Shown: positions 252 through 51,365, counted from the stretch's first letter. The stretch is 64,000 bases of DNA from an uncultured Pirellulales bacterium (GCA_964462515.1 CAYWXK010000013.1:4675-68674); one strand, 5' to 3'. The notes: generated by a model not told the origin, from the sequence alone. Program-made: numbers and translations.

Positions 252-1100
252 TTACCTCTCGCCAATTGCTGCCAGGGTTTTTTCGGCTGCATCGCGCACG
301 TATTTTTCACTTTTCTGCGTCCGGGTGTCACGCAGGCAGGTATATACTTTTGCCGCCTCATTTTTTTTGCCGGCCGTTAGAAGTTTTTCGGCAAGGACCA
401 AACAGGCCTGTGTGAGCTTGATTCTTTCGTAGGGGTTTTCGGTGTCCGCTGCTTTCAGCAGGGTATCTATCGAGCCGGTATCAGCGATGTTTGCTAATGC
501 CCAGGCTGCAGCCAGCTTAGTATCTCTGTCGGTATCGCTGACAATCTGTCTTAATAACTTGGCCGACCTAGCGTCACGGACTACGCCGAGGTTCTGCACA
601 ATGGTCAGGCGACACTTGCCTGCTGCCTTTTGCAGCGCATCTCGAAACTGCTCGGCGGCGCCATCGCCAATAGCGACCAGCGCCTGGGCCGCATCTTCGC
701 AAAGGTCCTGGTCGCACAATAGATTGCCGAGGGCCGAAGCAGCTTCTTTGCCGCCGGCTACCTGTAACTGCCGAATGACATAAGACTGCACTGCTTTTGG
801 TCGATTATCGCCAAGCTGTGAGGCAAGGGTCGTGGTGAATGTTTGTTGCTGGTTTTTATTCTGCAATTTGCATACATAGACCGCCAGGCAGTGAAGTGCA
901 TATCGAGGCTTGACATCATCGCCTTTACCAGGCTCAACGAGCATATCAATCAGGCCGACGATGTTGTCGCGGCCGCCTTTGTGTATCTCGGTGATGACGT
1001 TTTCAACAACTTGCTTGTCTATATTTGAGAGCATCCCTTGTTCATCTGGGTCGGGGAGCTTATTGACAAGTTCGAGCAGTGCTGATGATAGTTCGCTCAT
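252..1100 (-). CDS. HEAT-repeat (PBS-lyase-like) protein
   Basis: 282 aa of repeated alpha-helical HEAT-like units (e.g. ...AAWALANIADTGSIDTLLKAAD...). AAAGGA RBS before the ATG at 1100. It is the last gene of a five-gene minus-strand operon and is paralogous to the 40684-42665 product. Confidence 0.6.
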   Translation of the reverse strand: MSELSSALLELVNKLPDPDEQGMLSNIDKQVVENVITEIHKGGRDNIVGLIDMLVEPGKGDDVKPRYALHCLAVYVCKLQNKNQQQTFTTTLASQLGDNRPKAVQSYVIRQLQVAGGKEAASALGNLLCDQDLCEDAAQALVAIGDGAAEQFRDALQKAAGKCRLTIVQNLGVVRDARSAKLLRQIVSDTDRDTKLAAAWALANIADTGSIDTLLKAADTENPYERIKLTQACLVLAEKLLTAGKKNEAAKVYTCLRDTRTQKSEKYVRDAAEKTLAAIGER

Positions 1101-1137
1101 TACAAAATCCTTTCTACACTCGATGTGTATTTGAAGG

Positions 1138-2364
1138 TTATAAGTGCCAGGGCGCCCTCATTGGCTGATTGACCAGTCGATTGGCTTCCTGGTCGCCTAT
1201 GATTTCTTCTTTGACGGGGTCATAGCGGATTTTTCGGCCCGTTCTGATGGCGATGTTTGCCAGGTGAAGCAACGTTGCGCAGCGGTGAGCCGCCTCAGCG
1301 TGGCCGCCGGGTTGCTTACGGGTCTTGACAGCTTCTGCAAAATTTATCAGAGGTTCCGGGTCCGGCATTACTTCGATTTTCTTACGGCTTTCCTCATCGA
1401 GGTCATTTAGACGGACGCCACGAGACTCTTTGCGGTTATATGGCTGGCCCCACTCTCCGCTGTCAAAAACGAGCGTCAGGCCGTCTGCGTATTTTAGCTC
1501 CACCCAGCCCCACATTCCACAGGCATCCGAATGTGCAGGCGGGGCGTGTGCTTCAATCTCAACCGGGCTTGTGTCATCTTTCGCGTATGTCCACTGGAAG
1601 GGGTCGAAATAATGCTGGCCCATATCGGATAAGCCGCCTCCTTCGTAGTCCCAATAGCCGCGATGCGTTCCACCTGTGCGGTGTCTATGGTAAGGTTTCA
1701 TCGGCGATGGCCCGACATACATATCCCAGTCGAGACTGGGTGGTATCGGTTCAGGCTGCGAATTGACCTTGCCGCTCCACTCTTTAACCTTAAAGCCTCC
1801 TTGCTTAATAGAGACGGCCTCGCACTTTTTCAATAGCCCGCTTTTGATAATTTTGTGAATCAGGATGCTCTCTTTTTTTTGTCTTTCGCCGAACCGTCCG
1901 AAGGTGCCTACTTGAAATATGCGGTTGTATCGTTTCTCTGCCTCGACTACGGCGCGGCCTTCTGCGATGAATCGTGTCATAGGTTTTTCACAGAGGACAT
2001 CTTTGCCGGCCTCCATTGCAGCGATGGAAATCAGTGCGTGCCAGTGCGGCGGGGTGGCAATCGCTACTACGTCAATATCCTTGCGCTCCAGCACTTTGCG
2101 AAAGTCGGTGTAGATTGTTTTGTTATCGGCACGGTCGAGGAACCTCACATCGCAGGAGGCAAGGAGTTTTGCGTTAAGTCCCATTGCTTCGAATGTTCCT
2201 GACCCTCGTCCCCCACAGCCGATTAGCACACCGCCGACTGTTTCGCTGGGCGGCGTGTTACCTTCTCCACCCAAAACGTGTCTGGGAACTATCGTAAAAG
2301 CGGTTGCTACGCCGATAGAGCTTTTCAAGAACTGACGTCGTGTTACAATTTTATTGTTTGTCAC
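1138..2364 (-). CDS. Gfo/Idh/MocA family NAD(P)-dependent oxidoreductase with Tat signal
   Basis: Twin-arginine motif TRRQFLKSS at the N-terminus. Rossmann motif GVLIGCGGRG and the Gfo/Idh/MocA C-terminal fold. GTG start at 2364 preceded by an AAAGGAG RBS. The C-terminus (IRYDPVKEEIIGDQEANRL..PWHL) is paralogous to the 39236-40558 product. Confidence 0.8.
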   Translation of the reverse strand: MTNNKIVTRRQFLKSSIGVATAFTIVPRHVLGGEGNTPPSETVGGVLIGCGGRGSGTFEAMGLNAKLLASCDVRFLDRADNKTIYTDFRKVLERKDIDVVAIATPPHWHALISIAAMEAGKDVLCEKPMTRFIAEGRAVVEAEKRYNRIFQVGTFGRFGERQKKESILIHKIIKSGLLKKCEAVSIKQGGFKVKEWSGKVNSQPEPIPPSLDWDMYVGPSPMKPYHRHRTGGTHRGYWDYEGGGLSDMGQHYFDPFQWTYAKDDTSPVEIEAHAPPAHSDACGMWGWVELKYADGLTLVFDSGEWGQPYNRKESRGVRLNDLDEESRKKIEVMPDPEPLINFAEAVKTRKQPGGHAEAAHRCATLLHLANIAIRTGRKIRYDPVKEEIIGDQEANRLVNQPMRAPWHL

Positions 2365-2456: not shown

Positions 2457-3872
2457 TTACTTTGATTGGTTGGCTTTATATTTTTCCCAGTAATCAGGGA
2501 AGAATTCTTTGGCCTTTGCTTCAAGCTCCTGGTCGCTGATAGCCGTGAGGCGACCATCGCTCTCGTATTGGTCAATGACCCACCGTGCCAACCTGTGGAC
2601 CTTGATTTTGTTAATTCGGTCATCGCCTTTCAAACCGAAAAATTCGTTCACCCAGTGAGCCACACCGTCGGCGCCGCTCTTGTCGGTAATGGCAACGCGG
2701 GGCGGACGGCCGAGGAGCTTTGTGGTGTCGAATATATTGTATATCCTCTCATCCTGGCGCAACCCGCCGGCGTGAATACCCGCCCGCGTCGTATTAAATG
2801 CCCTGCCAGCGAACGGATAATTATCAGGAATAGGCTGCCCGATGGAGCGCATATAGTCAGCAAGGTCGGTAATTGCCATTGTATCGATGCCGCACAAGTC
2901 GCCTTTGAGTGCTATATACTCAAAAATTGCAGCCTCCAGAGGCGGGTTGCCTGTCCGCTCGCCGAATCCGAAGAGCGTTGTGTTGACGGCGTCGCAGCCA
3001 TATAGCCAGGCCGTCGCTGCGTTGATGTGCACTTTATGGAAGTCATTGTGGCCGTGCCATTCCAGGCGGTCGCTCGGCACGCCGCATTCCTTGTTGAGCT
3101 TGTATATAAGCTTGGGAATGCTTCTGGGCAGCCCGGCTCCCGGATAGCTGATGCCGAAACCCATTGTGTCGCATAATCGAATCTTTACGGATAGCTCTTG
3201 CGGCACCAGGCGGCTCATTTCCATCAAGCGATCCACGAATGGAAGAACAAATCCTTCGATGTCCGCACGAGTCAGGTCTTCGAGGTGACATCGCGGTCTA
3301 ACACCGGTCTCGAACGCTGCGTCCACCACCTGGCAGTAACTGTCTATGCACTCTTTTCTGCTGCGGAATTTCAATTTGTGAAAGATATGATAGTCGGAGC
3401 AGCTTGTCAGCATTCCTGTTTCTTTCAAGCCGGCATCTTTGACCAGTTGGAAGTCTCCTTTTACAGCTCGAATCCAGCCGGTGCATTCAGGATACTTGTG
3501 GCCCAGCGCCCGGCAGCGGTCCAGTGCCTCACGGTCATTTTTGGTATAAAGGAAAAATTCGGTTTGCCGTATTACACCGTTTGGGCCGCCAAGCCGTGAC
3601 ATCAAGTCGTAAATGCGCACCATTTGCTCAACTGTATATGGCGGGCCGGCCTGCTGGCCATCGCGGAATGTGGTATCCGTTATGACGATGTCTCTATCCT
3701 TAACAGTTCTGAAATCAAACTCTACCGGTTTGCCGCCAATATACTCAACCACCGGACCATCAAAAGTAATTAGCGGCGGCAAATCATAAGGAAAAATTTC
3801 CTCCAGCAAATTTGGTCTTATTGCGTCAACCAGCCTGTAAGCTCTGGCTGGATGTTTCTTCATTTTTTCCAT
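2457..3872 (-). CDS. LeuA/homocitrate-synthase family (HMGL-like DRE-TIM) synthase homolog
   Basis: Carries the TDTTFRDGQQ substrate motif and HGHNDFHKVHINAATAWLYGCDAVNTTLFGFGERTGNPPLEA, which resembles the LeuA/NifV HxH...GERxGN catalytic region. About 80-aa N-terminal extension. Start refined to the ATG at 3872 (MEKMKK) with an AAAGGA RBS; the ORF track started at the GTG at 3887. Confidence 0.75.
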   Translation of the reverse strand: MEKMKKHPARAYRLVDAIRPNLLEEIFPYDLPPLITFDGPVVEYIGGKPVEFDFRTVKDRDIVITDTTFRDGQQAGPPYTVEQMVRIYDLMSRLGGPNGVIRQTEFFLYTKNDREALDRCRALGHKYPECTGWIRAVKGDFQLVKDAGLKETGMLTSCSDYHIFHKLKFRSRKECIDSYCQVVDAAFETGVRPRCHLEDLTRADIEGFVLPFVDRLMEMSRLVPQELSVKIRLCDTMGFGISYPGAGLPRSIPKLIYKLNKECGVPSDRLEWHGHNDFHKVHINAATAWLYGCDAVNTTLFGFGERTGNPPLEAAIFEYIALKGDLCGIDTMAITDLADYMRSIGQPIPDNYPFAGRAFNTTRAGIHAGGLRQDERIYNIFDTTKLLGRPPRVAITDKSGADGVAHWVNEFFGLKGDDRINKIKVHRLARWVIDQYESDGRLTAISDQELEAKAKEFFPDYWEKYKANQSK

Positions 3873-3902
3873 TTCAAGTCCTTTCACCTTTTGTGTTAAG
3901 GA

Positions 3903-4163
3903 TTACTCTTCTACATCAACACCCTGCCGCTTACAGACATTGGTAATAAATTCAACTGCTTGGCCAACCGTTTGCACTGCGAGGGCGGCGTCCTCATCCA
4001 TTTCTATGCCGAAATCTTCCTCAAACATAGCGACAAGCTCGATGGATTGGATGCTTTCCGCTCCCAGGTCTTCCGTGAAGCTATCCTCCAATCTGATTTC
4101 ATCGGGATTTAGTTTCAAAACCCGGGCTGTAACTGCTATCACTCGGTCTTCTACTGTTGCCAT
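3903..4163 (-). CDS. acyl carrier protein (AcpP-like)
   Basis: MATVEDRVIAV...FTEDLGAESIQSIELVAMFEEDFGIEM aligns to the AcpP helix II, including the phosphopantetheine-serine DLGA(D/E)S motif. Start refined to the ATG at 4163 with an AGGAG RBS. This removes the overlap with the upstream gene. Confidence 0.8.
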   Translation of the reverse strand: MATVEDRVIAVTARVLKLNPDEIRLEDSFTEDLGAESIQSIELVAMFEEDFGIEMDEDAALAVQTVGQAVEFITNVCKRQGVDVEE

Positions 4164-4185
4164 TATTTGTTCTCCTATTATGCTA

Positions 4186-5466
4186 TTATCTTGACAGTGC
4201 TCTACGGCCTTTTTCAATCGCTATTTCTCGCTGCTGTGCTGTTATCGCATAGACAGCTTCCCACATAGATTGCTCTGCGGCAGACCATTTGCAGCCGCGT
4301 CTGCTCATCACTATTTTAGCCGTCTCGAATAATCTTGCTTTGCCGAAACCTTTTGTAACGATGCCTTCAACAAACCATCCAAAAGACGGAATAAATTTTG
4401 GCAATGGTTTGCCTGTTGCAAGGATGACGGTCATAGCTCCGATGTAGGAGCCGGTGTTTAACAATGTTCCGATAGAAGTCTTAGCGTGGTCTCCTATTAA
4501 AGACCCTACCTTTGTTGAGCCGGTATCGATAGGCCGCCGTCCGTCCAGCATTATTGAAACGGTTGAGTAATCGTTTTTAAGGTCGCTATTGGTGGTAAGT
4601 GCACCGAGATTGACCCATTCGCCGATGTAGCTGTGCCCGATAAAGCCTTCGTGGTATTTGTTGGAATAGCCGTGAATAATTGACCCCTCAACCTCTCCAC
4701 CAATCCGACATACAGGCCCAATCGAATTGCCTGCACGACAATTTGCACCGGTGAGAATTGAGTCTTTTCCAATATAGCAAGGGCCTTCAATTCGACTAAA
4801 TGGTTGTATCTGGACGCCCTGGTCGATATAGACTGGCCCATATTCAGCATCGATAACCACCATAGGATGCACGACCGCACCCTGAGCAATATACACATCT
4901 TTTTTGCCGCCTCGAATGGCGCTGGGCTGCTCAACTATTCCTTCGATGCCATTTTGCCCTGCCGCCACAAAGTCTTCGGTTATCTGGTCGGTGTTGGCCA
5001 GGATAAGCTCCCAGATATATCGCCACGTTTTAAGTGTGCACAATACATTGGGCAACTTTGCTTTGGCTGCCTCCAAAAATTCGACAACATCATTGAAAAC
5101 AATGCCTTTCAACTCACCCGAAGTTATGCGGGCATATAGAATCCTTCCATCCTGGTCAAGGCCGACTTCGCTTTTTTTACCAGTTGGAATGCTTAAGTCC
5201 TGACACTTTACCAGCGGGTCCACGATAAGCAGGTCGTTTTCGTTTAAGATAGACAGGTCATTGACCGGATGTTTCACTTTTGCCTGGTATGCTTCAGCCA
5301 TATAGTCGGGCACAAAATAAGCCACGTCGCTTGCGCCCGTCTTAGCTATAAGTTTTTCACCGAGTGAGCTTATACCGCATCGCAGTTCCCACAATGTACG
5401 GTTTAATGCAATGGGATAAAAATTTCTTCTAATTTCCTCGAATCTATCAACCAAAATTAACCGCAT
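4186..5466 (-). CDS. GlmU-like putative sugar nucleotidyltransferase / left-handed beta-helix (hexapeptide) acyltransferase
   Basis: N-terminus MRLILVDRFEEI... is nucleotidyltransferase-like but lacks the GxGxR loop. The C-terminal half is rich in hexapeptide [LIV]-G-x-x-x-x repeats (IGKDSILTGANCRAGNSIGPVCRIGGEVEGSIIHGY...). Start refined to the ATG at 5466 with an AAAAGG RBS. Confidence 0.65.
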   Translation of the reverse strand: MRLILVDRFEEIRRNFYPIALNRTLWELRCGISSLGEKLIAKTGASDVAYFVPDYMAEAYQAKVKHPVNDLSILNENDLLIVDPLVKCQDLSIPTGKKSEVGLDQDGRILYARITSGELKGIVFNDVVEFLEAAKAKLPNVLCTLKTWRYIWELILANTDQITEDFVAAGQNGIEGIVEQPSAIRGGKKDVYIAQGAVVHPMVVIDAEYGPVYIDQGVQIQPFSRIEGPCYIGKDSILTGANCRAGNSIGPVCRIGGEVEGSIIHGYSNKYHEGFIGHSYIGEWVNLGALTTNSDLKNDYSTVSIMLDGRRPIDTGSTKVGSLIGDHAKTSIGTLLNTGSYIGAMTVILATGKPLPKFIPSFGWFVEGIVTKGFGKARLFETAKIVMSRRGCKWSAAEQSMWEAVYAITAQQREIAIEKGRRALSR

Positions 5467-6650
5467 AAGATACCTTTTTCTTAGGAAGCTCACCCTGCGT
5501 GAAAAGCCGTTCGGCATCGCAATAAGATTACTTGCACTATCTTACAATTGTCACACTATAGTTACTTTTGCAAGTTGCACATCCTGCTGGAAGGTGAGGC
5601 CGGTTCGCACCACCGACCATTTCACCTCTTCCTTAAACTTCTTTTCATTCAGGTTTTGCTCAAAACAATGTGTAGAATTCTACCGAAACTCACCGTGCAA
5701 TCAATAAAAAATAACGTGCAAGTCAAACCTTCCTCTACACAATTATTAACTCATTTAGAAATTTTTTGGGCAGTTGGGTAAATTTACGATGAAAAAATGG
5801 TTAGCCCGCGTTTCTCACAGGCTCCAAGTTTTATCGTGAGAGGAAGGGAACATCGTATCCTCCTTGTGAGGAATAGATGTATTACTGACGGGTACTATAG
5901 TAAGCTAAAGGCAACTGGCAGTGACTGGGGAGAAAGCCCCTGCCGCGACCAAAAAATCCTTGAAAAAATTGAGTCCTCCAGAAACCATTAGGTCTTTTTT
6001 GGAAGACTCAAGGATGAATCCTCCCCCCCATAGGGGGTATCTCAAAGAGACTTATCACAGAAGTAAGGATATCATCCAGAACCGGTAAAAATAATTGCCG
6101 TTGGTCATGGTTGAACCCAAAGATAAACCCAGCCAAGCCGACCTATAAAAACAGGAGAATTTGGCAAACTTGATTAAAATGGTGAAAAAACTAATTATTA
6201 TATGGGAATCTGGAAAAGCCATTTGCCTGCAAAAAATGCGATTTTTACAAAGACTTTTGCGGTTTCGAAGCCGTTGCAGGTATTTAGCAGGCTTTCGATA
6301 CACCAAAAATCATAGAAATTTGATAAGAAAATTATTGCTATTAACGCCTTTGACGATTATTATAACAAGTTTGGCTATAATGATTATCGGCTGCCAAAGC
6401 TAACTTTACTGTAGAGATGCTTAAAGCAATTTTGACAGGATTAACAGACAGTGCACGGTAGATGGACAATTTGGCTGCGCAGCCGCGCTTTGTTCGGATG
6501 GCTTGAGAATCAGTGTTTCTGCTTCGGACATCCGGAAATGAACGAGGTTTCTACTACCGGAGGCAGAATGATGTAGTATAAGTGTAAACTATAACTTCGT
6601 TCGTTCTTGGCGTGTTGTGAGTCCGCTTCTATGGCGGCTCACCTTGAGAG

Positions 6651-6682
6651 GTGGAAACTTCGGAAGGTTTCCACTTTTTTTT
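6651..6682 (+). terminator. intrinsic-terminator-like hairpin (gtggaaac-ttcggaag-gtttccac + T8) about 32 nt upstream of nusA
   Basis: A perfect 8-bp stem followed by an 8-T run, immediately before the nusA RBS (AAAGAGAAAG). It may be a leader attenuator, or the terminator of an upstream non-coding transcript. Confidence 0.55.
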
Positions 6683-6714
6683 GCTCTTGTTGTAATAAAA
6701 AAAGAGAAAGAACA

Positions 6715-7935
6715 ATGAACCAGGAATTGCTGAGAATTGTGGACAATATCGCAAGAGATAAGAATATCGACAAGGAGGCGATATTTTTAGACCTCGAAGA
6801 GGCTATGGTCTCGGCGGCGAAAAAGCATTTTGGCGAGCCGCAAGAAAATATAGCGGTTCATATCGACCGCGAAACAGGACAAATTACTGCCTTCAAAGAT
6901 AATAAACAGATTGATATAACACAGCTCGGTCGAATCCCCGCCCAGGTTGCCAAACAGGTGATGATACAGAAAATACGGGCAGATGAGCGGGATAGTATCT
7001 ACACCGAATTCAGCCAGCGAAAAGGCGAAATCATAAGTGGCACGGTCGTCCGATATGAAGGCGGGACGCTCATTGTAAATCTGGACCACTGGACCGAAGG
7101 GTATATACCAAAAGGCGAGCAGATAGCAGGCCAGACGCATAAGCCCGGCGAAAGAATTCGATGCCTGATTCTTAATGTAAAGGAAACTTCAAACCAGGTC
7201 AAAGTTATTCTTTCTCGCACTCATCCTGACTTTATACGCCGACTGTTTGAGCTGGAGGTGCCGGAAATTAATGAAAAAATCATTGAAATACGGGCGCTAG
7301 CGAGAGAGGCAGGCTACCGAACCAAAGTCGCCGTTATCTCATACGATGAGAAGGTTGACCCCGTGGGGGCCTGTGTTGGAGTACGAGGCAGCAGAATAAA
7401 AAACATAGTTGACGAACTCGGCGGCGAAAAAATAGATATTGTCCGCTGGAACGAGTCATCGCAGGTCCTGGTGGCAAATGCGCTGATGCCGGCAAAGGCC
7501 AGCGAAGTTGCCCTCTGTTTTGAATTGGGACGCGCAACCGTAGTTGTCGAAGAAGACCAGCTTAGTTTGGCTATAGGAAAGCACGGCCAGAACGTTCGAT
7601 TAGCTGCACGATTGACTGGTTGGGACATCGATATACTAACGCCGGACGAATATAATCAGGGTATTGAACGATTAACAAACTGTGTCAAGGGTATTGATGG
7701 CGCCGATGATGCTCTGGTTGACAAGCTGATAGCTCTGGGTGTTATATCCATTCTGGACCTCGATGATGTAGGTGTTGAGCCTCTTATCAATGAACTGAAA
7801 TTTGACCCTGAGCTCGCTGAAAGATTGGTTGCTGCAGCGGTAAAAGAAGTGAAGCTTTTGGCTACCGAACCAAAACAAAAACAGGCAGAAAGTATTCTGC
7901 AGCAGCAAGCAAAAATAGTTGATAATCAACAATAA
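6715..7935 (+). CDS. nusA: transcription termination/antitermination factor NusA
   Basis: N-terminal NusA domain, an S1 domain (GEIISGTVVRYEGGTLIVNL) and two KH domains (GACVGVRGSRIKNIVDELGGEKIDIV), plus C-terminal acidic repeat region. Start refined to the ATG at 6715 with a good RBS. Confidence 0.9.
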   Translation: MNQELLRIVDNIARDKNIDKEAIFLDLEEAMVSAAKKHFGEPQENIAVHIDRETGQITAFKDNKQIDITQLGRIPAQVAKQVMIQKIRADERDSIYTEFSQRKGEIISGTVVRYEGGTLIVNLDHWTEGYIPKGEQIAGQTHKPGERIRCLILNVKETSNQVKVILSRTHPDFIRRLFELEVPEINEKIIEIRALAREAGYRTKVAVISYDEKVDPVGACVGVRGSRIKNIVDELGGEKIDIVRWNESSQVLVANALMPAKASEVALCFELGRATVVVEEDQLSLAIGKHGQNVRLAARLTGWDIDILTPDEYNQGIERLTNCVKGIDGADDALVDKLIALGVISILDLDDVGVEPLINELKFDPELAERLVAAAVKEVKLLATEPKQKQAESILQQQAKIVDNQQ

Positions 7936-34947: not shown

Positions 34948-37521
34948 ATGAACAAAGCAAATCTAAAAAGTTTGTTTGCGATTTCGATAATTCAGCCAGC
35001 GATTGTATTAGTACTTATCCTGTCCTTATTTAATCCGGCTTGTTCTGTTTTTGCTGAGTCGCACGACATGGTTTCTATCCCGGGCGGCGAGTTTCAAATG
35101 GGCGATAGTAAAAATGAAAGTTGGATATCTGAACGGCCTGTCCATGCAGTTACCCTGGATTCGTTCTATATTGGTAAGTATGAGGTAACAAACCAGCAGT
35201 ATTGTGCTTTCCTCAACTGGGCGGATGACAACGGCTGGATTACAGTCACAAACGGTGTTGTTTACAAAGCCGGTTCCGGGACCAGTTATCCATATTGTGA
35301 CACATTTTCGGCAGATTATTACAGCCAGATTTCCTACAGCGGCGATGTTTTCAGCGTTAGAACCAAGGGCGTTCGCAATATGGCCAACGACCCGATGGTT
35401 ATGGTCAGTTGGTATGGAGCGGCTGCTTATTGCAACTGGCGAAGCCAGCAGGAAGGAAAAGAGCAGTGTTATAATCTTTCGACCTGGGCGTGTGATTTTA
35501 GTAAGAAGGGTTATCGTCTTGCAACTGAGGCGGAATGGGAATATGCGGCGAGGGGTGGCCTTGTGGGGAGGCGATTCCCGTGGGGCGATACTATCTCCCA
35601 TAGCCAGGCGAATTATTTAAGCGATAGTTCATATTCCTATGATATAAGCCCAACAAGGGGTCATCATCCGACCTGGATTGATGGGATTTATCCATATACT
35701 GCGCCAGTGGGTAGTTTCCAAGCTAACGGCTACGGTCTTTATGAAATGGCGGGTAATGTCTGGGAGTGGTGTAATGACTGGTACTCGAGCACTTATTACA
35801 GTACAACACCCTATCCTCATGTTAATCCAACTGGACCGATTTCTGACACTTACCGTGTTATGCGTGGCGGCGGATGGGTCTACTTCGCCGAATACTGTCG
35901 TGTGGCATTCCGCTTCGGCCACGAACCGCGATACCGGGCCTTCAGCCTCGGATTTCGTCTTGTCCTTGGATACGGCAAAGAATTTATGATTACTTTTGAC
36001 GATGGTCCCGTGCCGGGAAATACAAAGAACATCGTCGATGCGCTTAAGAATATCAAGGTCGCTAATGGTGAGCCGGTAAAAGCTGGATTCTTTATGGTTG
36101 GCGTTGGATGTTGTGAAAATTCAACTTGTTTTTGCCCATGGTATGACCGCTGGCCACCTAAAGGAAGCGTAAGAGAGAATCCCGCTCTTGTCCAGATGGC
36201 TGCGAAGGCTGGCCATTACATTGGAGACCATACCCAGCATCATCCTGATTTCAACGCTTGGTTTAAGGACTGGTCTGTTGAGTCTATAAAACTCGAGATA
36301 TCCAACTGTTACAATGAGATAAAAACCGCACTTGGGCTTGGACCTAACGAAGATCTACCAAAAAAGATATTTAGACCTCCTTATTTCTCACTGAACGCGA
36401 ATGTTTGCACGGCCGCGAATAAACTCGACTTCCAGATAATCTTGGGAGCGGGGGAAAACCGTAATCAAGCTCTTGATATCGGTTGGCCTTCTTTGCCTTC
36501 GGCAGACGAAATCAAGGAAAAAGCAAGAACGTTGATTGAAAGTTGGGAAAGAGATGAACCGTGCGTCCTAGTGTTTCATGACATTTCACCCATAACCGCC
36601 AACAACATCGCAGAGATAATTAGGTATCTGCGGGAGGATGAAGGTTTTACTTTGGTTCACTTTGACCCGGACAGACTTCCAGGTGGGCGATCATGGCTTC
36701 TTGGTATAATGAAGAGTTTTATTCGACAAGGTGAGAATAAAAGGGACAGTATATCTTTGGATTCAACGGTCACCAATGCAACCTTTAGTCTTTCATGGCA
36801 AGGAAGCGACATTGACCTTGTGCTCTATAAGCCAGATGGCACAAAGATAGACCCTAATAGCACTCTGGTTGACCCAAATATTAAGTATGCCGAGAGAGAT
36901 ACGTATGAGTATTATTTTATCTCGGATCCAAATCCGGGAAGCTGGATAATGGAGGTTTCAGGCGTAAATGTTCCGCCGGAGGGAGAGAAGTACACCATAA
37001 GAGTCGAGTCCGATACCAATCTGGCACTCTTTGCATTTACTGACAAACCAGCCTATGGATTAAATGAACAGATCTATATAACGGCTGAATTGGTAAATGA
37101 TGAAAACTCAGTTACGGGTGCATTAGTTACGGCAAAAGTCCAACGCCCGGTTGGGTCTATTGATAATCTTACCTTATATGATGATGGCACCCATGGAGAT
37201 GAAGAACCTAATGATGGATTCTACGCAAACGCCTACAAAAACACTTCTCTAAGAGGGTCGTATGAAATTACTGTATCGTCTATTGGTGAGCTAACAGGAG
37301 ACCAATATGAAAGGGCTTTCTCTTTAACAGTTATGGTCGGCTCGATTTTTTATGGGAATATAGACTTTAGTGCCTATGCCGTCTTTGCTGACCACTGGAT
37401 GACTCACAATTGCACGGGTCCCGCTTGGTGTGACACCGCTGACATTGATCAGAGTGGAAAGGTGGACATTTTCGATCTCGGAATCTTAGTCGAATATTGG
37501 CTCGAAGACACTTCCCCTTAG
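34948..37521 (+). CDS. secreted multidomain protein: FGE-sulfatase (SUMF1-like) domain + NodB polysaccharide deacetylase domain + beta-sandwich region + C-terminal dockerin-like repeat
   Basis: Signal peptide. FGE-sulfatase motifs (GGEFQMGD..., WEWCNDWY, RVMRGGGW, GFRLV). NodB motif MITFDDGP with downstream His-rich motifs. C-terminal DIDQSGKVDIFDLGILVEYW. Confidence 0.7.
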   Translation: MNKANLKSLFAISIIQPAIVLVLILSLFNPACSVFAESHDMVSIPGGEFQMGDSKNESWISERPVHAVTLDSFYIGKYEVTNQQYCAFLNWADDNGWITVTNGVVYKAGSGTSYPYCDTFSADYYSQISYSGDVFSVRTKGVRNMANDPMVMVSWYGAAAYCNWRSQQEGKEQCYNLSTWACDFSKKGYRLATEAEWEYAARGGLVGRRFPWGDTISHSQANYLSDSSYSYDISPTRGHHPTWIDGIYPYTAPVGSFQANGYGLYEMAGNVWEWCNDWYSSTYYSTTPYPHVNPTGPISDTYRVMRGGGWVYFAEYCRVAFRFGHEPRYRAFSLGFRLVLGYGKEFMITFDDGPVPGNTKNIVDALKNIKVANGEPVKAGFFMVGVGCCENSTCFCPWYDRWPPKGSVRENPALVQMAAKAGHYIGDHTQHHPDFNAWFKDWSVESIKLEISNCYNEIKTALGLGPNEDLPKKIFRPPYFSLNANVCTAANKLDFQIILGAGENRNQALDIGWPSLPSADEIKEKARTLIESWERDEPCVLVFHDISPITANNIAEIIRYLREDEGFTLVHFDPDRLPGGRSWLLGIMKSFIRQGENKRDSISLDSTVTNATFSLSWQGSDIDLVLYKPDGTKIDPNSTLVDPNIKYAERDTYEYYFISDPNPGSWIMEVSGVNVPPEGEKYTIRVESDTNLALFAFTDKPAYGLNEQIYITAELVNDENSVTGALVTAKVQRPVGSIDNLTLYDDGTHGDEEPNDGFYANAYKNTSLRGSYEITVSSIGELTGDQYERAFSLTVMVGSIFYGNIDFSAYAVFADHWMTHNCTGPAWCDTADIDQSGKVDIFDLGILVEYWLEDTSP

Positions 37522-38788: not shown

Positions 38789-39235
38789 AACTGTAACCTC
38801 ATTTTTAATCGTTCGTATCTTCTATATCGAAATTCTGTATTCTTTACTCTGCATTTTGTTGTTTGCACGATATATCGAATGCCGGGGTTCTGCAAGCAGT
38901 TTTTTTCTCTTTTTACGCCGAGAACACAAAACTTATTTTCTAAACGACCCTTATGCGAGAAATTCCGGCGGCAAGAATCATCTAAGAATTTCGAAGATTT
39001 GTTTCTAATCCACACCAAATATGAAGCGCCGGCGTAACCGAGGCCACTTTTACACTGGTGTTTCCGGCTAATTTTTTGTTAAAATTATGCTCAAATTTCT
39101 TGTTGTTAGTCTGACGAAATGATAGAATTCTGGCATACGAATCTGACGGTGCAGTAATCCGTCACAAGGAATTTCAGTTGTAGTTATCTATTTGTGCGTC
39201 TTAAAATTGTGGCTTTGTCGATAAGGAGACGATTA

Positions 39236-40558
39236 ATGAGTCAAGCAAAAATGAACCGTTTGAGCAGACGCCAGTTTCTACAAAGCGCCACTGCGGTAGC
39301 AGGTAGTCTGGTGGCTGGACCGGTAATTGTGAAATCAACGGCGTTGGGTCGTGACGGAAGGGTTGCCGCCAGTGAGCGAATTGTGCTGGGTGGTATCGGC
39401 ATCCGCAACCGCGGCATGCACGACCTGCAATGGATGATGCCGGAGCCGGACGTGCAGTTCGTTGCCGTCTGCGATGCCCAGAAAGCCAGCCGAGAGGCCG
39501 TCAAGAAAGCGGTGGACACGCGATATGGTAACAAAGATTGCGCTATGTTCAGTGACATCCGCGTGTTCCTTGCCGAACGCACCGACATTGATGCGGTGCT
39601 GATTGCAACCGGCGACCGCTGGCACGCGCTGGCCTCTATTTTTGCGATGCGGGCAGGCAAAGACGTTTATTCTGAAAAGCCGTCGGCTATGACCATTGCG
39701 GAAGGTCGGGGGGTCGTGGAAACCGCAAGACGCTATCGCCGAATTTACCAAACCGGCACGCAGCGGCTCAGCGAGGGCAACTTTGTCTTCGCCATCGAGC
39801 TTGCCCTCACAGGCCGGCTCGGCAAGGTGCACACTGCCTATGCGCATATTGCTCCCTGGGACGCAGCGGAGATGAGGCACGACTGGCTTCCTGCACAGCC
39901 CGAACCGCCCAAAGAAGTAGTGGACTGGGACCACTGGTTAGGCCCGTGTCCCTGGCGGCCTTACAACGCAGAATACGTCGGCGGAGGCTGGCGCGGCCAC
40001 TACGACTTCCACACCAGTTGCATAGGCGAATGGGGCGCACACACCTTCGCCCAGGCGCAGGCGGGAATCGGCGCTCTGAATACTTCAGCGGTCGAATACC
40101 AATACGTCAACAATCCCACCGGCGATGAAATGGTTACGAGGTTCGCTAACGGCGTCAAAATGATATTGAGTCGAGGCGATAAGTGGTGGCGCGGCTCCTG
40201 CGGTATGCGATTCGATGGCCCCGATGGATGGGTATCAGCGGCAGATGGCTATTCGCAGCCGGATGTTTCGCCGCCTTCACTGATGGCCGAATTCAAGAAG
40301 ATAGTCTCCGACTACATAGCCCGCACAGGCCGACCGATGAGCCACATGCGAGATTTCCTGGATTGTGTCAAGTCGCGCCGACAAACGGTGGCAAATCCGG
40401 AAGTGATGCACCATTCTATGTCAACCGTGCATGCCGCCAATATCTGTATGTGGCTCAAACGTGATATGCGTTACGACCCCGTCAAAGAGGAATTCATTAA
40501 CGACCCGGAGGCCAATCGGATGCGCAGCCGTGCTATGCGTGAGCCTTGGACCATCTAA
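39236..40558 (+). CDS. Gfo/Idh/MocA family oxidoreductase with Tat signal
   Basis: Twin-arginine motif LSRRQFLQSATAVAGS and the GGIGIRNRG Rossmann motif. Start refined to the ATG at 39236 with a TAAGGAG RBS. Paralog of the 1138-2364 product. Confidence 0.8.
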   Translation: MSQAKMNRLSRRQFLQSATAVAGSLVAGPVIVKSTALGRDGRVAASERIVLGGIGIRNRGMHDLQWMMPEPDVQFVAVCDAQKASREAVKKAVDTRYGNKDCAMFSDIRVFLAERTDIDAVLIATGDRWHALASIFAMRAGKDVYSEKPSAMTIAEGRGVVETARRYRRIYQTGTQRLSEGNFVFAIELALTGRLGKVHTAYAHIAPWDAAEMRHDWLPAQPEPPKEVVDWDHWLGPCPWRPYNAEYVGGGWRGHYDFHTSCIGEWGAHTFAQAQAGIGALNTSAVEYQYVNNPTGDEMVTRFANGVKMILSRGDKWWRGSCGMRFDGPDGWVSAADGYSQPDVSPPSLMAEFKKIVSDYIARTGRPMSHMRDFLDCVKSRRQTVANPEVMHHSMSTVHAANICMWLKRDMRYDPVKEEFINDPEANRMRSRAMREPWTI

Positions 40559-40683
40559 TGGGAAATTCAAAAATCAAAAGTCAAAGATTAAAATTGCGGA
40601 ATTGCCGCAGGGCGGCAATAAATTCATCAATTTTGCATTTTACACTTTGATTTTTGCATTGCTCTTGAAAGGAAACAAAGCTA

Positions 40684-42665
40684 TGTCAAAGTCAAAAATA
40701 ATCTTTGCTCTGCTTGTTGCGTTGTTGTTTGCAAGCGCAGTGCAATTGTTCGGACAAACCGTTCCACTCCCCACAAAGGAAAATGTGGACAAGCTGATTG
40801 CCGTGCTCAAGTCTGATGCACCGCAAAAAGAAAAGGTCGATGCCTGCCGACAACTGTCTGTCATCGGCACAAAAGATGCCATCGCACCGCTGGCGGCGCT
40901 GCTCGGTGACGAAAAACTCTCGGATATGGCCCGCTACGCCCTCGAACCCATCCCGGACCCGGCTGTTGACGATGCCTTGCGCGATGCGCTCGGCAGACTC
41001 AAAGGCCGACCGCTGGCCGGTGTAATCACAAGTATTGGCGTGCGGCGAGATGCAAAGGCAGTCGCGGCGTTATCGAAATTACTGCAGGACCAGGATTCAA
41101 TTGTGGTGCAGGCCTCAGGCCGTGCGCTTGGCACAATCGGTAATCAGCCAGCGGCCAAGTCGCTGCGGGGTGCTCTGAAAAATGTTTCCGCCGCTAATCA
41201 GCTCGCAGTGTGTGAAGGCTTATTACGCTGTGCAGAGTCTCTCGCAGCAAAAGGGCAGCGTGATGAGGCCATCGAGATTTATGACCAGCTTCGTGGCCTT
41301 AAGGGAGCAGCCCACCAGGTTCGTGCAGGCGCTCTGCGAGGCGCAATCCTTGTGCGTGGCAATGAAGGCCTGTCTTTGCTTCGGCAGTATTTGAAAAGCG
41401 ATGACTACATTTTGTTCTCCGCAGCCGTCCAGGCCTCTTACGAATTGCCAAGAGATAAGGCAGTAACCGATGTGTTGACCGATGGACTGAGCAAACTGCC
41501 TGCCGACAATCAGATTCTGGTCATCCTGGCACTTGGCAAACGCGGTGATGCGGCGGCGCTGCCGACACTGTTTGCTCTGGCTAAAAGCGGTGAAAAAACC
41601 GTTCGCATCGCTGCTATTCAGGCCCTGCCGGCGATTGGACATAGTTCCGCAGTTCCAGTCCTTGTGGAATTGCTGGCCGATGCCGACCGACAGATTAGCG
41701 ATGCCGCGCAAGAGAACCTCGCTGCATTTTCAGGCAAGGAGGCTGATACTGCCGTGATGGCGATGTTTAATAGCGGTAAAACAGATGAGCGCCTTACTGC
41801 GCTCGAAATAATCGGGCGTAGGCGGATGACGACAAGTGTTCCTTTGCTGTTGAAAGCCGCCGGCGACGCCGACCCAAAAGTTCGTTCTGCCGCAATAAAG
41901 AAAGTTGGTGAGCTGGGCGGCCCAGCCGAGCTGCCGGCGCTGCTCAAACTGCTTATGGATTTGAAAGAGTCGCAAGATATAAACGCCGCTGAACAGGCCT
42001 TGCTCGATGTTTGCAACAAAGCTGATAATCCGCAATCTTACAACGAGAAGTTTATCGGCCTGCTATCGCAAGCCCAGCCCGCACAAAAGAGCTCCCTGTT
42101 GCGTGTTCTCGGTGCTATCGGTGGAGCGAACGCCCTGAAGGCCGTGCGCGAGGCAGTCAATGACTCTGATGCGCAGGTCCATACCGCCGCAATCCGTGCA
42201 CTGAGCGGCTGGAAAACCATAGATGCGGCGCCCGAGTTGCTTGCGCTTGCCAGGAGCGCCGGCAATCCAAATGACAAAACGATTTGCCTGCGTGGCTACA
42301 TAGGATTGGCCGCTCGTTCTGAGATACCTGCCGACCAGCGATTGTCGATGTGCCGGGAGGCCGCCGGCCTTATTGAGCGAAGTGAGGAAAAGAAGCTGCT
42401 GTTAGGCGCTCTGGGCAGTATCAATTTACCGGGTTCACTTGAATTGATTGTGCCGTATATAAACGACCCGGCTACGCAGGAAGAGGCCGGCCTGGCATAC
42501 ATAGCGGTTGCCGATAGGCTTCTCGAAACGCCTGATGCCTCGAAGCTCGCACCAAAAATGCTTGAAACGCTTGAAAAATTGGCACAGGTTACAACTAACT
42601 CCACCCTTGTCCGGCGTGCTAAAGCGTCGTTGAGGCAGGCGAAAGATAAGGCCGGCAACAAATAA
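40684..42665 (+). CDS. secreted HEAT-repeat protein
   Basis: Signal peptide MSKSKIIFALLVALLFASAVQLFGQ. About 15 HEAT/PBS-lyase-like repeats (..D.A..VR.AA..ALG.IG...A...L..LL.D....VR..A..AL..). Start refined to the ATG at 40684. Confidence 0.7.
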
Positions 42666-48050: not shown

Positions 48051-48189
48051 ATTAGTGCCCTCTTATAGTTTCCTATCTGCCATTTATGCCTTTAACTGTC
48101 GGTCTATTAAGCTAATTATATGCTGCACCGTAGGAAAATAAACGGTTGGGCTGAAAATATTTGCCCAAATAGTGCCCCACCAACTCTCC

Positions 48190-48430: not shown

Positions 48431-48571
48431 TTTACCTATAAACGTGAAGCACACCCTCTTGCGACGGGGGCTTTTATTTCCCTTGTAATCGTCCTAACCT
48501 TCGGTATAATGCTTTCTTACAATAACATTATTGGCGATTCCTCTTTGCTTTGAATAAAACAAAGGTGCGAT

Positions 48572-48781: not shown

Positions 48782-48836
48782 CTGATAATTTCTCTGGGAA
48801 AATGAAAACCGATGATTCAAAGGGCCTAAATTCAAA

Positions 48837-51362: not shown

Positions 51363-51365
51363 AAT

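What the first reader, a model, noticed from the sequence alone, without database searches (positions are those of the whole stretch)
2457..5466. Operon pairing a LeuA/homocitrate-synthase-like enzyme, a dedicated AcpP-like carrier protein and a GlmU-like LbetaH acyltransferase
Seen in sequence: three tightly packed minus-strand genes, each with its own good RBS. (i) 4186-5466 has a nucleotidyltransferase-like N-terminus lacking the usual G-rich loop (MRLILVD...) and a long hexapeptide-repeat left-handed beta-helix C-terminus. (ii) 3903-4163 is an 86-aa ACP with the DLGAES phosphopantetheinylation motif and high similarity to housekeeping AcpP. (iii) 2457-3872 is a DRE-TIM metallolyase of the LeuA/NifV/citramalate-synthase type (TDTTFRDGQQ; HGHND...GERTGN) with an 80-aa N-terminal extension. 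The operon continues into a Tat-exported Gfo/Idh/MocA oxidoreductase and a HEAT-repeat protein. Established knowledge: LbetaH acyltransferases such as LpxA/LpxD use acyl-ACP donors, and LeuA-family enzymes perform Claisen condensations of acetyl-CoA with 2-oxo acids. An ACP embedded between such enzymes, rather than in a fab cluster, suggests a dedicated acyl-transfer pathway. Inference: this may be a pathway for an unusual N-/O-acylated (amino)sugar or hydroxy-acid moiety, for example an envelope or lipid-A-like modification.
Basis: partly seen in the sequence, partly recalled or inferred. Interest (0 to 1): 0.6.

Follow-up and report, generated by a model that had tools for sequence, protein, structure and literature searches.

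The report
Carrier protein paired with citrate-synthase-like enzyme
Three adjacent genes in an anaerobic planctomycete belong to a gene module conserved across several bacterial phyla, in which a dedicated small acyl carrier protein sits beside a Re-citrate-synthase-type enzyme and usually an amino-sugar acetyltransferase-like protein; I found no description of this pairing, and it suggests acetyl groups are passed on a carrier protein instead of coenzyme A.

Summary
The three minus-strand genes are real and tightly packed: GlmU-like 4186-5466, ACP 3903-4163, LeuA-like 2457-3872.

The LeuA-like protein is not LeuA, NifV or CimA. It belongs to the Re-citrate synthase / phosphinomethylmalate synthase family, at 52-57% identity to Syntrophus and clostridial members.

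Within that family it falls in one monophyletic clade. In 22 of 26 loci of that clade an ACP gene lies beside it, across Planctomycetota, Bacteroidota, Gemmatimonadota, Latescibacterota and Thermodesulfobacteriota. In the rest of the family the count is 0 of 55.

The ACPs form their own orthologous group with the signature DLGAES(V/I)QS..EL.A.FEEEF.IEMDED. They score below the AcpP equivalog cut-off and are 36-45% identical to E. coli AcpP.

Recurrent neighbours are:
- an LbH protein (TIGR03991 GlmU-like in Planctomycetota, DUF4954 elsewhere);
- nagB;
- an ADP-forming acyl-CoA-synthetase-like ligase, or Pta/AckA;
- sometimes an AcpS-type phosphopantetheinyl transferase.

The Gfo/Idh/MocA and HEAT genes downstream are not part of the module.

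The best reading, which is inferred and not shown, is that a dedicated ACP carries acetyl groups between these acetyl-handling enzymes. The lipid-A-like or unusual-acyl product remains speculative.

The parts
5677..5704 (-). Sigma-70-like promoter candidate (TTGATT-16-TAGAAT) about 210 nt upstream of the first gene. A terminator-like hairpin at 5803-5823 lies just upstream of it.
   Evidence: Consensus scan only. It is not evidence of function, and planctomycete promoters may differ.
4186..5466 (-). GlmU-like protein, 426 aa. The N-terminal half is a nucleotidyltransferase-like domain without the GxGTR loop. The C-terminal half is a left-handed beta-helix acyltransferase domain.
   Evidence: TIGR03991 alt_bact_glmU scores 328 bits against a cut-off of 225.3 (this model is a 'hypothetical equivalog'). 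PF13562 and Hexapep also hit. An LbH profile matches S. tokodaii ST0452 (2ggo) at E=6e-19, with the catalytic His aligned to H272; other ST0452 substrate residues differ. Nearest folds are ST0452, GMPP, GlmU and eIF2B. It lies directly upstream of the ACP in 56 of 60 metagenome loci.
3903..4163 (-). Dedicated acyl carrier protein, 86 aa, with the phosphopantetheine serine in DLGAES.
   Evidence: PF00550 at E=4e-14. It scores below the AcpP equivalog cut-offs (TIGR00517 66.5 vs 70.45). It is 36% identical to E. coli AcpP. It shares a clade-specific signature with the partner ACPs of other phyla. It is the only ACP in the 64-kb window.
2457..3872 (-). Re-citrate-synthase-family DRE-TIM Claisen condensing enzyme, 471 aa, belonging to the ACP-linked clade.
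   Evidence: PF00682 is the only Pfam hit, and no LeuA, NifV or CimA cut-off is met. It is 83-90% identical across more than 120 protein clusters; those with a source name are from Planctomycetota/Phycisphaerae, several Sedimentisphaerales. One of these is named 'citrate (Re)-synthase' by JGI. It is 52-57% identical to Syntrophus and clostridial homologs. The ACP-linked clade is monophyletic. About 100 residues are invariant with the ACP-free clade, alongside clade-specific changes R60, R142, R372, D402, K424 and R430. The AF2 model has pLDDT 94; the nearest solved structures are HCS, MAM and IPMS at about 20% identity.

Best explanation
The trio is the planctomycete form of a conserved, multi-phylum gene module built around a dedicated AcpP-like carrier protein.

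Shown:
- The ACP is co-inherited with one clade of Re-citrate-synthase-family condensing enzymes.
- The pair is usually joined by an LbH acyltransferase-like protein (TIGR03991 here, DUF4954 elsewhere) and by glucosamine-6-phosphate deaminase NagB.
- It is often joined by enzymes that interconvert acetate and acetyl thioester with ATP: an ADP-forming acyl-CoA-synthetase-like ligase that has its own adjacent ACP, or Pta/AckA.
- It is sometimes joined by an AcpS-type phosphopantetheinyl transferase.

Inferred mechanism: the holo-ACP carries an acetyl group as acetyl-S-ACP. It is loaded by the ADP-forming ligase, by Pta from acetyl phosphate, or by exchange with acetyl-CoA. Two enzymes then consume it:
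1. The Re-citrate-synthase-like enzyme condenses it with oxaloacetate to give citrate and frees the ACP.
2. The LbH protein N-acetylates a glucosamine phosphate whose pool is set by NagB.

In the window organism only the two consumers and the carrier are clustered. Direction, the true acyl group and the acceptor sugar are not established.
For: Association of the ACP with the LeuA-like gene:
- ACP adjacency is 22 of 26 in clade A against 0 of 55 in the rest of the family (Fisher p=4e-16).
- In metagenome contigs the ACP is followed by the LeuA-like gene in 64 of 65.
- ACP identity tracks LeuA-like identity (Spearman 0.87).
- Flanking genes differ between genomes while the pair or trio is kept.

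The ACP as a dedicated carrier:
- Module ACPs form one clade with a private signature and an invariant Ser. They lie apart from E. coli and B. subtilis AcpP, and the three scanned all fall below the TIGR00517 cut-off.
- AcpS is adjacent in L172 and L029.

Evidence that the acyl group is acetyl:
- About 100 residues, including all recognisable catalytic motifs, are invariant between the ACP-linked and ACP-free (Re-citrate synthase) clades.
- Pta and/or AckA are adjacent in L059, L025, L032 and L166. The ADP-forming ligase (near the acetate-CoA ligase alpha cut-off, 545 vs 567 bits) is adjacent in L019, L028, L153, L172 and L175.
- An Ldh_2 malate/lactate-type dehydrogenase lies next to the enzyme in L023 and L024. 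Malate dehydrogenase, which would supply oxaloacetate, is only one of several activities in that family.

Hub rather than linear pathway. The units also occur separately:
- ACP plus LeuA-like without an LbH protein (L008, L013, L022);
- DUF4954 with ACP, ligase and nagB but no LeuA-like gene (L175);
- DUF4954 plus nagB alone (L176).

Other points:
- Two LbH families that show no sequence similarity occupy the same slot.
- The LbH domain keeps the catalytic His of the ST0452/GlmU acetyltransferases.
- Clade A gains several basic residues (R60, R142, R372, R430), which would suit docking of an acidic ACP. This is suggestive only.
Against: - No biochemical data exist, and no carrier-protein-dependent DRE-TIM Claisen enzyme is known to me.
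- Characterised Re-citrate synthases use acetyl-CoA without an ACP.
- The active-site identity with ACP-free relatives equally fits an ordinary acetyl-CoA-dependent citrate synthase.
- LbH acetyltransferases of the GlmU/ST0452 type use acetyl-CoA. Several ST0452 substrate-binding residues are not conserved (Y311->F275, N331->D295, K337->S301), so the acceptor may not be GlcN-1-P.
- No loader gene (ligase, Pta) is in this window.
- It is unclear why a cell with abundant acetyl-CoA would need acetyl-ACP.
- Bacteroidota carry two paralogous module ACPs, one beside the ligase and one beside the LeuA-like gene. A single shared carrier does not require that.
- Whether the genome has a separate housekeeping acpP was not testable.
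Confidence: 0.42

Rival explanations
1. Linear biosynthetic pathway. Acetyl-ACP is condensed with a 2-oxo acid by the LeuA-like enzyme without hydrolysis, giving a citryl- or other hydroxy-dicarboxyl-ACP. The LbH protein then transfers this acyl group to a glucosamine phosphate made by NagB, producing an unusual N-acylated amino sugar for the envelope.
For: All the parts would have a role: ACP, LeuA-like, LbH with its catalytic His, nagB, ligase and AcpS. LpxA and LpxD show that LbH enzymes can take acyl-ACP donors (established knowledge).
Against: - The units occur apart. L175 has LbH, ACP, ligase and nagB without a LeuA-like gene. L008, L013 and L022 have ACP plus LeuA-like without an LbH protein.
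- The catalytic core is the same as in hydrolysing Re-citrate synthases.
- No glycosyltransferase, flippase or lipid A genes recur nearby.
- I know of no N-citryl amino sugar.
Confidence: 0.15
2. An ordinary acetyl-CoA-dependent Re-citrate synthase whose clade has acquired the ACP as a regulatory or structural partner. The analogy is mitochondrial ACP bound to LYR proteins. Here the acylation state of a small carrier would report acetyl or acyl supply and tune citrate synthesis and amino-sugar acetylation.
For: Active-site residues are invariant with the ACP-free clade. Relatives of the enzyme are fused to regulatory domains (Cache, receiver, ACT), so the family is prone to regulation. Clade-specific surface-type substitutions are present.
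Against: The ACP also pairs on its own with an ADP-forming ligase (L172, L175, L028), and an AcpS is adjacent. That looks like a substrate-carrying system. The Ser is invariant.
Confidence: 0.15
3. The cleavage direction: an ACP-dependent citrate-lyase-like system. The ADP-forming ligase makes citryl-ACP from citrate and ATP. The LeuA-like enzyme splits it into oxaloacetate and acetyl-ACP. The acetyl group is then used by the LbH acetyltransferase or converted to acetyl phosphate or acetate.
For: Classical citrate lyase (CitDEF) and ATP-citrate lyase / citryl-CoA synthetase plus lyase are precedents for carrier-bound or ligase-coupled citrate cleavage (established knowledge). An ADP-forming ligase of the succinyl-CoA-synthetase superfamily lies next to the ACP or the LeuA-like gene in five loci.
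Against: The ligase is present in only a minority of loci and scores best as an acetate- or 4-hydroxybutyrate-type ligase. Pta/AckA replace it elsewhere, and these do not act on citrate. Re-citrate synthases are effectively irreversible hydrolysing enzymes.
Confidence: 0.07
4. No functional link. The three genes are housekeeping genes (an alternative GlmU, the cell's only acpP, and Re-citrate synthase) that stay together by descent.
For: The genes are individually of housekeeping type. The LeuA-like protein is unusually conserved (83-90%). No second ACP lies in the 64-kb window. The genome-wide check for another acpP could not be run.
Against: - The same ACP orthologous group follows the LeuA-like clade into Bacteroidota, Gemmatimonadota, Latescibacterota and Thermodesulfobacteriota, with different flanks.
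- The ACP fails the AcpP equivalog cut-offs.
- No fab gene turned up among the recurrent neighbour families or the Pfam-annotated neighbours of the related loci.
- Some loci have two such ACPs.
- ACP-free relatives never have an ACP within 10 kb.
Confidence: 0.07

Closest known systems
Re-citrate synthase (EC 2.3.3.3) of Clostridium kluyveri / Syntrophus aciditrophicus type, and the related 2-phosphinomethylmalate synthase
   Same: Same protein family: a DRE-TIM barrel with a conserved ~60-aa N-terminal extension and no LeuA C-terminal regulatory domain. The window protein is 52-57% identical to Syntrophus, Syntrophales and clostridial homologs. About 100 residues are invariant. JGI names close relatives 'citrate (Re)-synthase' or '2-phosphinomethylmalic acid synthase'. 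Planctomycete (anammox) homologs about 55% identical to the C. kluyveri enzyme are treated as Re-citrate synthase in the literature (PMC8027424, PMC8862662).
   Different: The window protein lies in a separate monophyletic clade that is tied to a dedicated ACP gene. ACP-free members lie next to isocitrate dehydrogenase in 6 loci, or next to hisS-aspS; the ACP-linked clade never does. There are clade-specific insertions (FD 52-53, P224) and substitutions (D402 where 51 of 52 others have Ala; several new Arg/Lys). The characterised proteins themselves were not available for direct comparison.
ST0452 of Sulfolobus tokodaii and GlmU (sugar-1-phosphate nucleotidylyltransferase / amino-sugar-1-phosphate N-acetyltransferase)
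   Same: The two-domain architecture is the same: a nucleotidyltransferase fold plus an LbH domain. The LbH profile matches ST0452 at E=6e-19 with the catalytic His aligned. These are the nearest folds. NCBIfam TIGR03991 names the family an alternative bacterial GlmU.
   Different: The protein lacks the GxGTR nucleotide-binding loop. It scores far below the true GlmU model (20.7 vs 366.85 bits). Several ST0452 acceptor-binding residues are replaced. It is encoded next to an ACP. TIGR03991 is only a hypothetical equivalog, with no experimental member that I could find.
Housekeeping AcpP of type II fatty-acid synthesis
   Same: Same fold family (PF00550), similar length and acidic helix II, and a conserved serine in a DLGAxS motif.
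   Different: It has AES(V/I)QS instead of ADSLDT, is 36-45% identical to E. coli AcpP, falls below the equivalog cut-offs, never lies in a fab context in the loci examined, and in Planctomycetota has a C-terminal tail.
Carrier-dependent acetyl-condensing or cleaving systems: donor-ACP/HMG synthase cassettes of polyketide beta-branching, and citrate lyase CitDEF with its own ACP
   Same: Both are precedents, from established knowledge, for an enzyme whose relatives use acetyl-CoA taking the acetyl group from a dedicated discrete carrier protein encoded next to it. Citrate lyase is also a precedent for carrier-bound citryl and acetyl intermediates.
   Different: The enzyme folds are different: HMG synthase is thiolase-like and CitE is HpcH-like. 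CitD is not a PP-binding ACP and uses a different prosthetic group. None of their accessory genes are present. The resemblance is by analogy only.

Membership tests
Re-citrate synthase family (C. kluyveri type) | DRE-TIM barrel with the metal/2-oxo-acid motifs (R-D in TDTTFRDGQQ, HxH, GERTGN, catalytic His in AGIH), and no LeuA_dimer regulatory domain | tested here: met
   PF00682 is the only Pfam hit. The motifs are invariant across 84 family members. The AF2 model has pLDDT 94 and shows a TIM barrel plus a C-terminal helical subdomain.
Re-citrate synthase family (C. kluyveri type) | Close sequence relationship to experimentally characterised members (C. kluyveri CKL_0973, S. aciditrophicus) | tested here: inconclusive
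   The protein is 52-57% identical to homologs from Syntrophus sp., Syntrophales, Clostridia and Lachnospiraceae, and JGI gives the KO-derived name 'citrate (Re)-synthase' to an 86%-identical protein. The characterised sequences themselves could not be retrieved: Li et al. 2007 is not held.
Re-citrate synthase family (C. kluyveri type) | Catalyses acetyl-CoA + oxaloacetate -> citrate with Re-face stereochemistry | not testable with these tools
   Needs an enzyme assay with stereochemical analysis.
Re-citrate synthase family (C. kluyveri type) | Genomic association with oxidative TCA-branch genes | tested here: not met
   Isocitrate dehydrogenase lies next to ACP-free members in 6 loci. It is next to none of the 27 ACP-clade genome loci, and none of the 80 metagenome loci showed it in the same tblastn search.
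2-isopropylmalate synthase / homocitrate synthase (NifV) / citramalate synthase | Score above the curated NCBIfam cut-offs | tested here: not met
   The best score is nifV, 122.6 bits against a 462.9 cut-off. leuA_bact scores 70.1 vs 598.7 and citramal_synth 61.1 vs 450.
Housekeeping AcpP | Score above the TIGR00517/NF002148 cut-offs and a DSLDTVEL-type helix II | tested here: not met
   TIGR00517 gives 66.5 vs 70.45 and NF002148 gives 63.6 vs 71. On TIGR00517 the partner ACPs of L029 and L024 also fall below (62.0, 69.2). The motif is AESIQSIEL.
Housekeeping AcpP | Located in a fabD-fabG-acpP-fabF cluster, or the only acpP of the genome | tested here: inconclusive
   No fab gene was found among the window ORFs that were annotated, the recurrent neighbour families, or the Pfam-annotated neighbours of the related loci. 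Whether another acpP exists elsewhere in the genome could not be tested.
Phosphopantetheine-dependent carrier protein (PF00550) | PP-binding domain with a conserved attachment serine | tested here: met
   PF00550 at E=4e-14. The Ser is invariant in 13 partner ACPs. An AcpS-type transferase is adjacent in L172 and L029.
TIGR03991 alt_bact_glmU (putative sugar nucleotidyl transferase) | Score above the curated cut-off over the full length | tested here: met
   328 bits vs 225.3, covering residues 1-406 of 426.
Bifunctional GlmU (TIGR01173) | Cut-off score, a GxGTR(M/L) nucleotide-binding loop, and an acetyltransferase catalytic His | tested here: not met
   The score is 20.7 bits against 366.85. 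The N-terminus reads MRLILVDRFEEIRRNFYP with no Gly-rich loop. Only the catalytic His (H272) is kept.
Citrate lyase acyl carrier system (CitD/CitE/CitF) | CitD-type carrier and an HpcH-fold CitE lyase | tested here: not met
   The carrier is PF00550 and the enzyme is PF00682. No CitD, CitE or CitF families were hit.

The most novel reading that the evidence does not exclude
A carrier-protein branch of acetyl metabolism. A dedicated ACP, not coenzyme A, would deliver acetyl groups to a citrate-synthase-type DRE-TIM enzyme, which would be the first carrier-dependent member of that superfamily's Claisen enzymes. The same ACP would supply an LbH N-acetyltransferase. That enzyme would be the long-missing glucosamine-phosphate acetyltransferase of the many Bacteroidota and Planctomycetota that lack a bifunctional GlmU (gap noted in PMC4358021). 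An ADP-forming ligase would act as an acetate-ACP ligase.
Probability: 0.3. Interest if true: 0.8.

Novelty: new variant of a known kind. Interest (0 to 1): 0.64.

Why it matters
Re-citrate synthase homologs are routinely used to close the TCA gap in genome-based metabolic models of anaerobes. This analysis shows that a large, very conserved clade of them always travels with a private carrier protein and with amino-sugar and acetate genes. That clade is found in Planctomycetota (including Sedimentisphaerales and Pirellulales), Bacteroidota including a gut Odoribacter, Gemmatimonadota and Latescibacterota.

Annotating these genes as plain citrate or isopropylmalate synthase may therefore miss part of their biology. 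If the ACP carries the acetyl group, this would be a new mode of substrate delivery for the DRE-TIM Claisen enzymes. It would also mean there is a separate acetyl pool besides acetyl-CoA.

The module also gives a concrete, testable candidate for the unidentified glucosamine-phosphate N-acetyltransferase in bacteria that lack a bifunctional GlmU: DUF4954 or TIGR03991 together with nagB. Two domains of unknown function (DUF4954, DUF6819) gain a genomic context.

Tried and rejected
- **LeuA, NifV or CimA identity.** Rejected; all curated cut-offs are missed by a wide margin.
- **ACP fused to the enzyme in some relative (Rosetta-stone test).** Not found. The fusions are to Cache, receiver, ACT and ATP-grasp domains.
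- **Second ACP, fab, TCA, nagB, pta or ack genes in the window.** The tblastn searches found no second ACP, nagB, pta or ack, and Pfam scans of 25 of the larger window ORFs found no fab or TCA genes.
- **Gfo/Idh/MocA plus HEAT as module members.** Rejected. They are present only in the window's own species, and the same gene pair recurs elsewhere in the window.
- **Homology between the GlmU-like protein and DUF4954.** BLASTP shows nothing beyond repeat noise. DUF4954 has no PDB relative by sequence.
- **AF2 model of the GlmU-like protein.** Poor over residues 256-375, so it was not used for residue-level arguments.
- **Mapping clade-specific residues of the LeuA-like protein onto its good model.** Not possible, because coordinates are not exposed.
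- **afdb50 fold library.** Unavailable.
- **Li et al. 2007.** Not held.
- **Riboswitch or leader upstream of the trio.** No Rfam hit in the window at gathering scores, nor in 5400-6750 at E<=1.
- **Literature.** No paper links an ACP with Re-citrate synthase, and none describes TIGR03991; two papers only mention DUF4954 in passing.
- **ATP gain from the N-acetyl group of GlcNAc via acetyl-ACP.** Considered and rejected on thermodynamic grounds: going from amide to thioester is uphill by roughly 20 kJ/mol (my estimate from general knowledge).

Full report
**1. The observation**

Three minus-strand ORFs lie at 4186-5466 (426 aa), 3903-4163 (86 aa) and 2457-3872 (471 aa). The gaps between them are 22 and 30 bp, and purine-rich ribosome-binding sites sit before the second and third start codons. 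Gene calls on six public contigs of the same species give identical products.

- The first protein hits PF13562 (NTP_transf_4) and Hexapep. It scores 328 bits on NCBIfam TIGR03991 'alt_bact_glmU' against a cut-off of 225.3.
- The second hits PP-binding, but stays just under every AcpP equivalog cut-off. TIGR00517 gives 66.5 against 70.45.
- The third hits only HMGL-like. It misses all LeuA, NifV, CimA and homocitrate-synthase cut-offs by hundreds of bits.

A promoter-like site at 5704-5677 and the absence of terminator-like sites between the three genes fit one transcript, though these are consensus matches only. The 92-bp gap before the Gfo/Idh/MocA gene contains TTGACA and TATACA hexamers.

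**2. What the LeuA-like protein is**

It is extraordinarily conserved, at 83-90% identity in more than 120 protein clusters. Those with a source name come from Planctomycetota/Phycisphaerae, several of them Sedimentisphaerales. One of these is named 'citrate (Re)-synthase' by JGI.

A search of 1.84 billion cluster representatives finds only 219 relatives below E=1e-30. Names attached to these include 'citrate (Re)-synthase' and '2-phosphinomethylmalic acid synthase'. NCBI also attaches the evidently wrong 'histone-lysine N-methyltransferase' to a Desulfovibrio-type member.

A scan of one genome per GTDB species returned 80 loci. The protein is 52-57% identical to homologs in Syntrophus, Syntrophales, Clostridia, Lachnospiraceae, Nitrospirota and others. 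The literature identifies this family as Re-citrate synthase: C. kluyveri and S. aciditrophicus, with planctomycete anammox homologs at about 55% identity (PMC8027424, PMC8862662, PMC12016533).

The roughly 60-aa N-terminal extension is shared by the whole family, since alignments start at query residue 5-20. A high-confidence AF2 model (pLDDT 94) finds only homocitrate, methylthioalkylmalate and isopropylmalate synthases at about 20% identity in the PDB. No close relative has a solved structure.

**3. The key result: a clade tied to an ACP**

I ran tblastn of the window's ACP against the 80 genome loci. An ACP gene lies directly next to the LeuA-like gene in nearly all homologs of at least 63% identity, and in none of those at 60% or below.

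A neighbour-joining tree places all ACP-linked sequences in one clade nested within the family. Counting one locus per species gives 22 of 26 in that clade against 0 of 55 outside it (Fisher p=4e-16).

The clade spans:
- Planctomycetota (labelled Sedimentisphaerales, Phycisphaerales/Phycisphaeraceae, Pirellulales, Thermoguttaceae, Planctomycetales);
- Bacteroidota (L021, L028, L029);
- Gemmatimonadota (L023, L024);
- Latescibacterota (L025);
- Thermodesulfobacteriota (L032).

Flanking genes differ from genome to genome. A scan of JGI metagenomes with an alignment of the partner ACPs gave 80 contigs. The LeuA-like gene follows the ACP in 64 of 65 with enough sequence, and the GlmU-like gene precedes it in 56 of 60.

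**4. The ACP is a distinct orthologous group**

- Partner ACPs from all phyla share DLGAES(V/I)QS(V/I)EL(V/M)A.FEEEF.IEMDED.AL, with an invariant serine.
- They are 43-82% identical to the window ACP but only 36-45% identical to E. coli AcpP.
- They cluster apart from E. coli and B. subtilis AcpP.
- Their divergence tracks that of the LeuA-like partner (Spearman 0.87).
- ACPs from L029 and L024 also fall below the TIGR00517 cut-off.
- Some loci carry two such ACPs (L153, L172).
- An AcpS-type phosphopantetheinyl transferase lies beside the module in L172 and L029.

This argues strongly against the 'it is simply the housekeeping acpP' reading. The direct test, a second acpP in a fab cluster of the same genome, could not be run.

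**5. The rest of the module**

Pfam and NCBIfam scans of neighbours and tblastn mapping show recurrent partners in the ACP-linked clade only.

(a) An LbH protein. It is the TIGR03991 GlmU-like protein in Planctomycetota. It is a DUF4954+DUF6819 protein in Bacteroidota, Gemmatimonadota, Latescibacterota and one Phycisphaeraceae genome. The two show no detectable sequence similarity, yet they occupy the same slot.

(b) nagB, which scores above the TIGR00502 cut-off in L029 and L024.

(c) An ADP-forming acyl-CoA-synthetase-like ligase (L019, L028, L153, L172, L175), in three cases directly beside an ACP (L028, L172, L175). Alternatively Pta and/or AckA (L059, L025, L032, L166).

(d) An Ldh_2 malate/lactate-type dehydrogenase (L023, L024).

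Looking outward from DUF4954 homologs gave these arrangements:
- DUF4954-ACP-LeuA-like-nagB three times, including an Odoribacter genome;
- DUF4954 with an ACP-ligase-nagB operon and no LeuA-like gene (L175);
- DUF4954-nagB alone, in Ignavibacteriales (L176).

By contrast, ACP-free family members sit beside hisS-aspS, or beside isocitrate dehydrogenase in six loci. That fits an ordinary citrate synthase role for them.

The Gfo/Idh/MocA and HEAT genes after the trio occur only in the window's own species (6 of 119 loci). The same pair type recurs at 39194-42665.

**6. Enzyme-level clues**

About 100 positions, including every recognisable catalytic motif, are invariant between the ACP-linked and ACP-free clades. 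The chemistry is therefore probably the same: an acetyl thioester plus oxaloacetate. Clade-specific changes are few. They are a two-residue insertion (F52-D53), P224, D402 (Ala in 51 of 52 others), and gains of R60, R142, R372 and R430. This pattern would suit docking of an acidic carrier protein, but that is only suggestive.

The LbH half of the GlmU-like protein aligns to the acetyltransferase domain of S. tokodaii ST0452 at E=6e-19. The catalytic His is conserved (H272), while other substrate-binding residues are changed. The N-terminal half has the nucleotidyltransferase fold but lacks the GxGTR loop. The AF2 model of this protein is unreliable over residues 256-375.

**7. Interpretation**

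Shown: a conserved, multi-phylum module centred on a dedicated ACP and a Re-citrate-synthase-family enzyme, linked to an LbH acyltransferase-like protein, nagB and acetate/acetyl-thioester enzymes.

Inferred: the ACP carries acetyl groups and acts as a hub. It would be loaded by the ADP-forming ligase, by Pta, or by exchange with acetyl-CoA. It would be unloaded by the condensing enzyme, giving citrate, and by the LbH protein, giving N-acetylation of a glucosamine phosphate.

The hub model is preferred over a linear pathway to an exotic N-acyl sugar for three reasons. The units also occur separately. The catalytic core is unchanged. The extra neighbours are acetyl-specific.

The remaining alternatives are a regulatory ACP partner, a citrate-cleaving direction, and mere synteny of housekeeping genes. 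They are ranked in the rival list. None is excluded without biochemistry.

**8. Novelty**

Full-text searches found no paper linking an ACP with Re-citrate synthase and none on TIGR03991. Two papers mention DUF4954 only in passing. A known gap is relevant here: most Bacteroidetes genera have only a monofunctional GlcNAc-1-P uridyltransferase and no recognised glucosamine-phosphate acetyltransferase (PMC4358021). The LbH-nagB pairing seen here offers candidates for that role.

I rate the finding as a new variant of a known kind. The parts are of known families, but the carrier-linked clade and its module appear undescribed.

Noticed in passing
window 39194-42665 (+) and 252-2364 (-): Two separate pairs of a Gfo/Idh/MocA oxidoreductase followed by a HEAT-repeat protein lie in the same 64-kb window, which suggests a recurring two-gene unit in this organism. 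An Odoribacter locus (L173 3503-4837) also has a Gfo/Idh/MocA gene divergent from the module.
   Followed up: partly
window 5467-6606: A 1.1-kb stretch lies between the trio and the divergent nusA-infB-rbfA genes. It has no convincing ORF and no Rfam match. A terminator-like hairpin sits at 5803-5823 (-), upstream of the promoter-like site.
   Followed up: partly
L153 9712-15063: This is an extended planctomycete locus reading nagB, GlmU-like, ACP, LeuA-like, ADP-forming ligase, a 439-aa protein with no Pfam match, a second module-type ACP, and a PLP-dependent (PALP) enzyme.
   Followed up: partly
L176 6001-8972 and one ENA contig: In Ignavibacteriales the DUF4954+DUF6819 protein is paired with nagB alone. 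The pair lies next to a GH38 mannosidase and, on the ENA contig, an amidohydrolase. The LbH-nagB pair therefore exists without the ACP and the condensing enzyme.
   Followed up: partly
proteins P0243, P0245, P0246, P0274, P0283, P0305; P0392, P0400: Re-citrate-synthase-like proteins occur fused to Cache, response-regulator receiver, ACT or ATP-grasp domains. NCBI names several family members 'histone-lysine N-methyltransferase', an apparent systematic misannotation.
   Followed up: no
window 48000-52000: G+C drops to 0.36-0.41 here, against about 0.47 elsewhere. The dip overlaps an 841-aa N6 DNA methylase gene (48837-51362). It may be an acquired restriction-modification island. A serpin gene lies just before it (46761-48050).
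   Followed up: no
window 34948-37521 (+): An 857-aa protein combines an FGE-sulfatase (formylglycine-generating enzyme-like) domain with a polysaccharide deacetylase domain.
   Followed up: no
L034, L037 (Spirochaetota), L016, L018: These members of the ACP-linked clade have no detectable ACP within the fetched flanks. L016 has DUF4954 directly upstream of the LeuA-like gene with no ACP between them. This could reflect loss, relocation, or mis-binning of MAG contigs.
   Followed up: no
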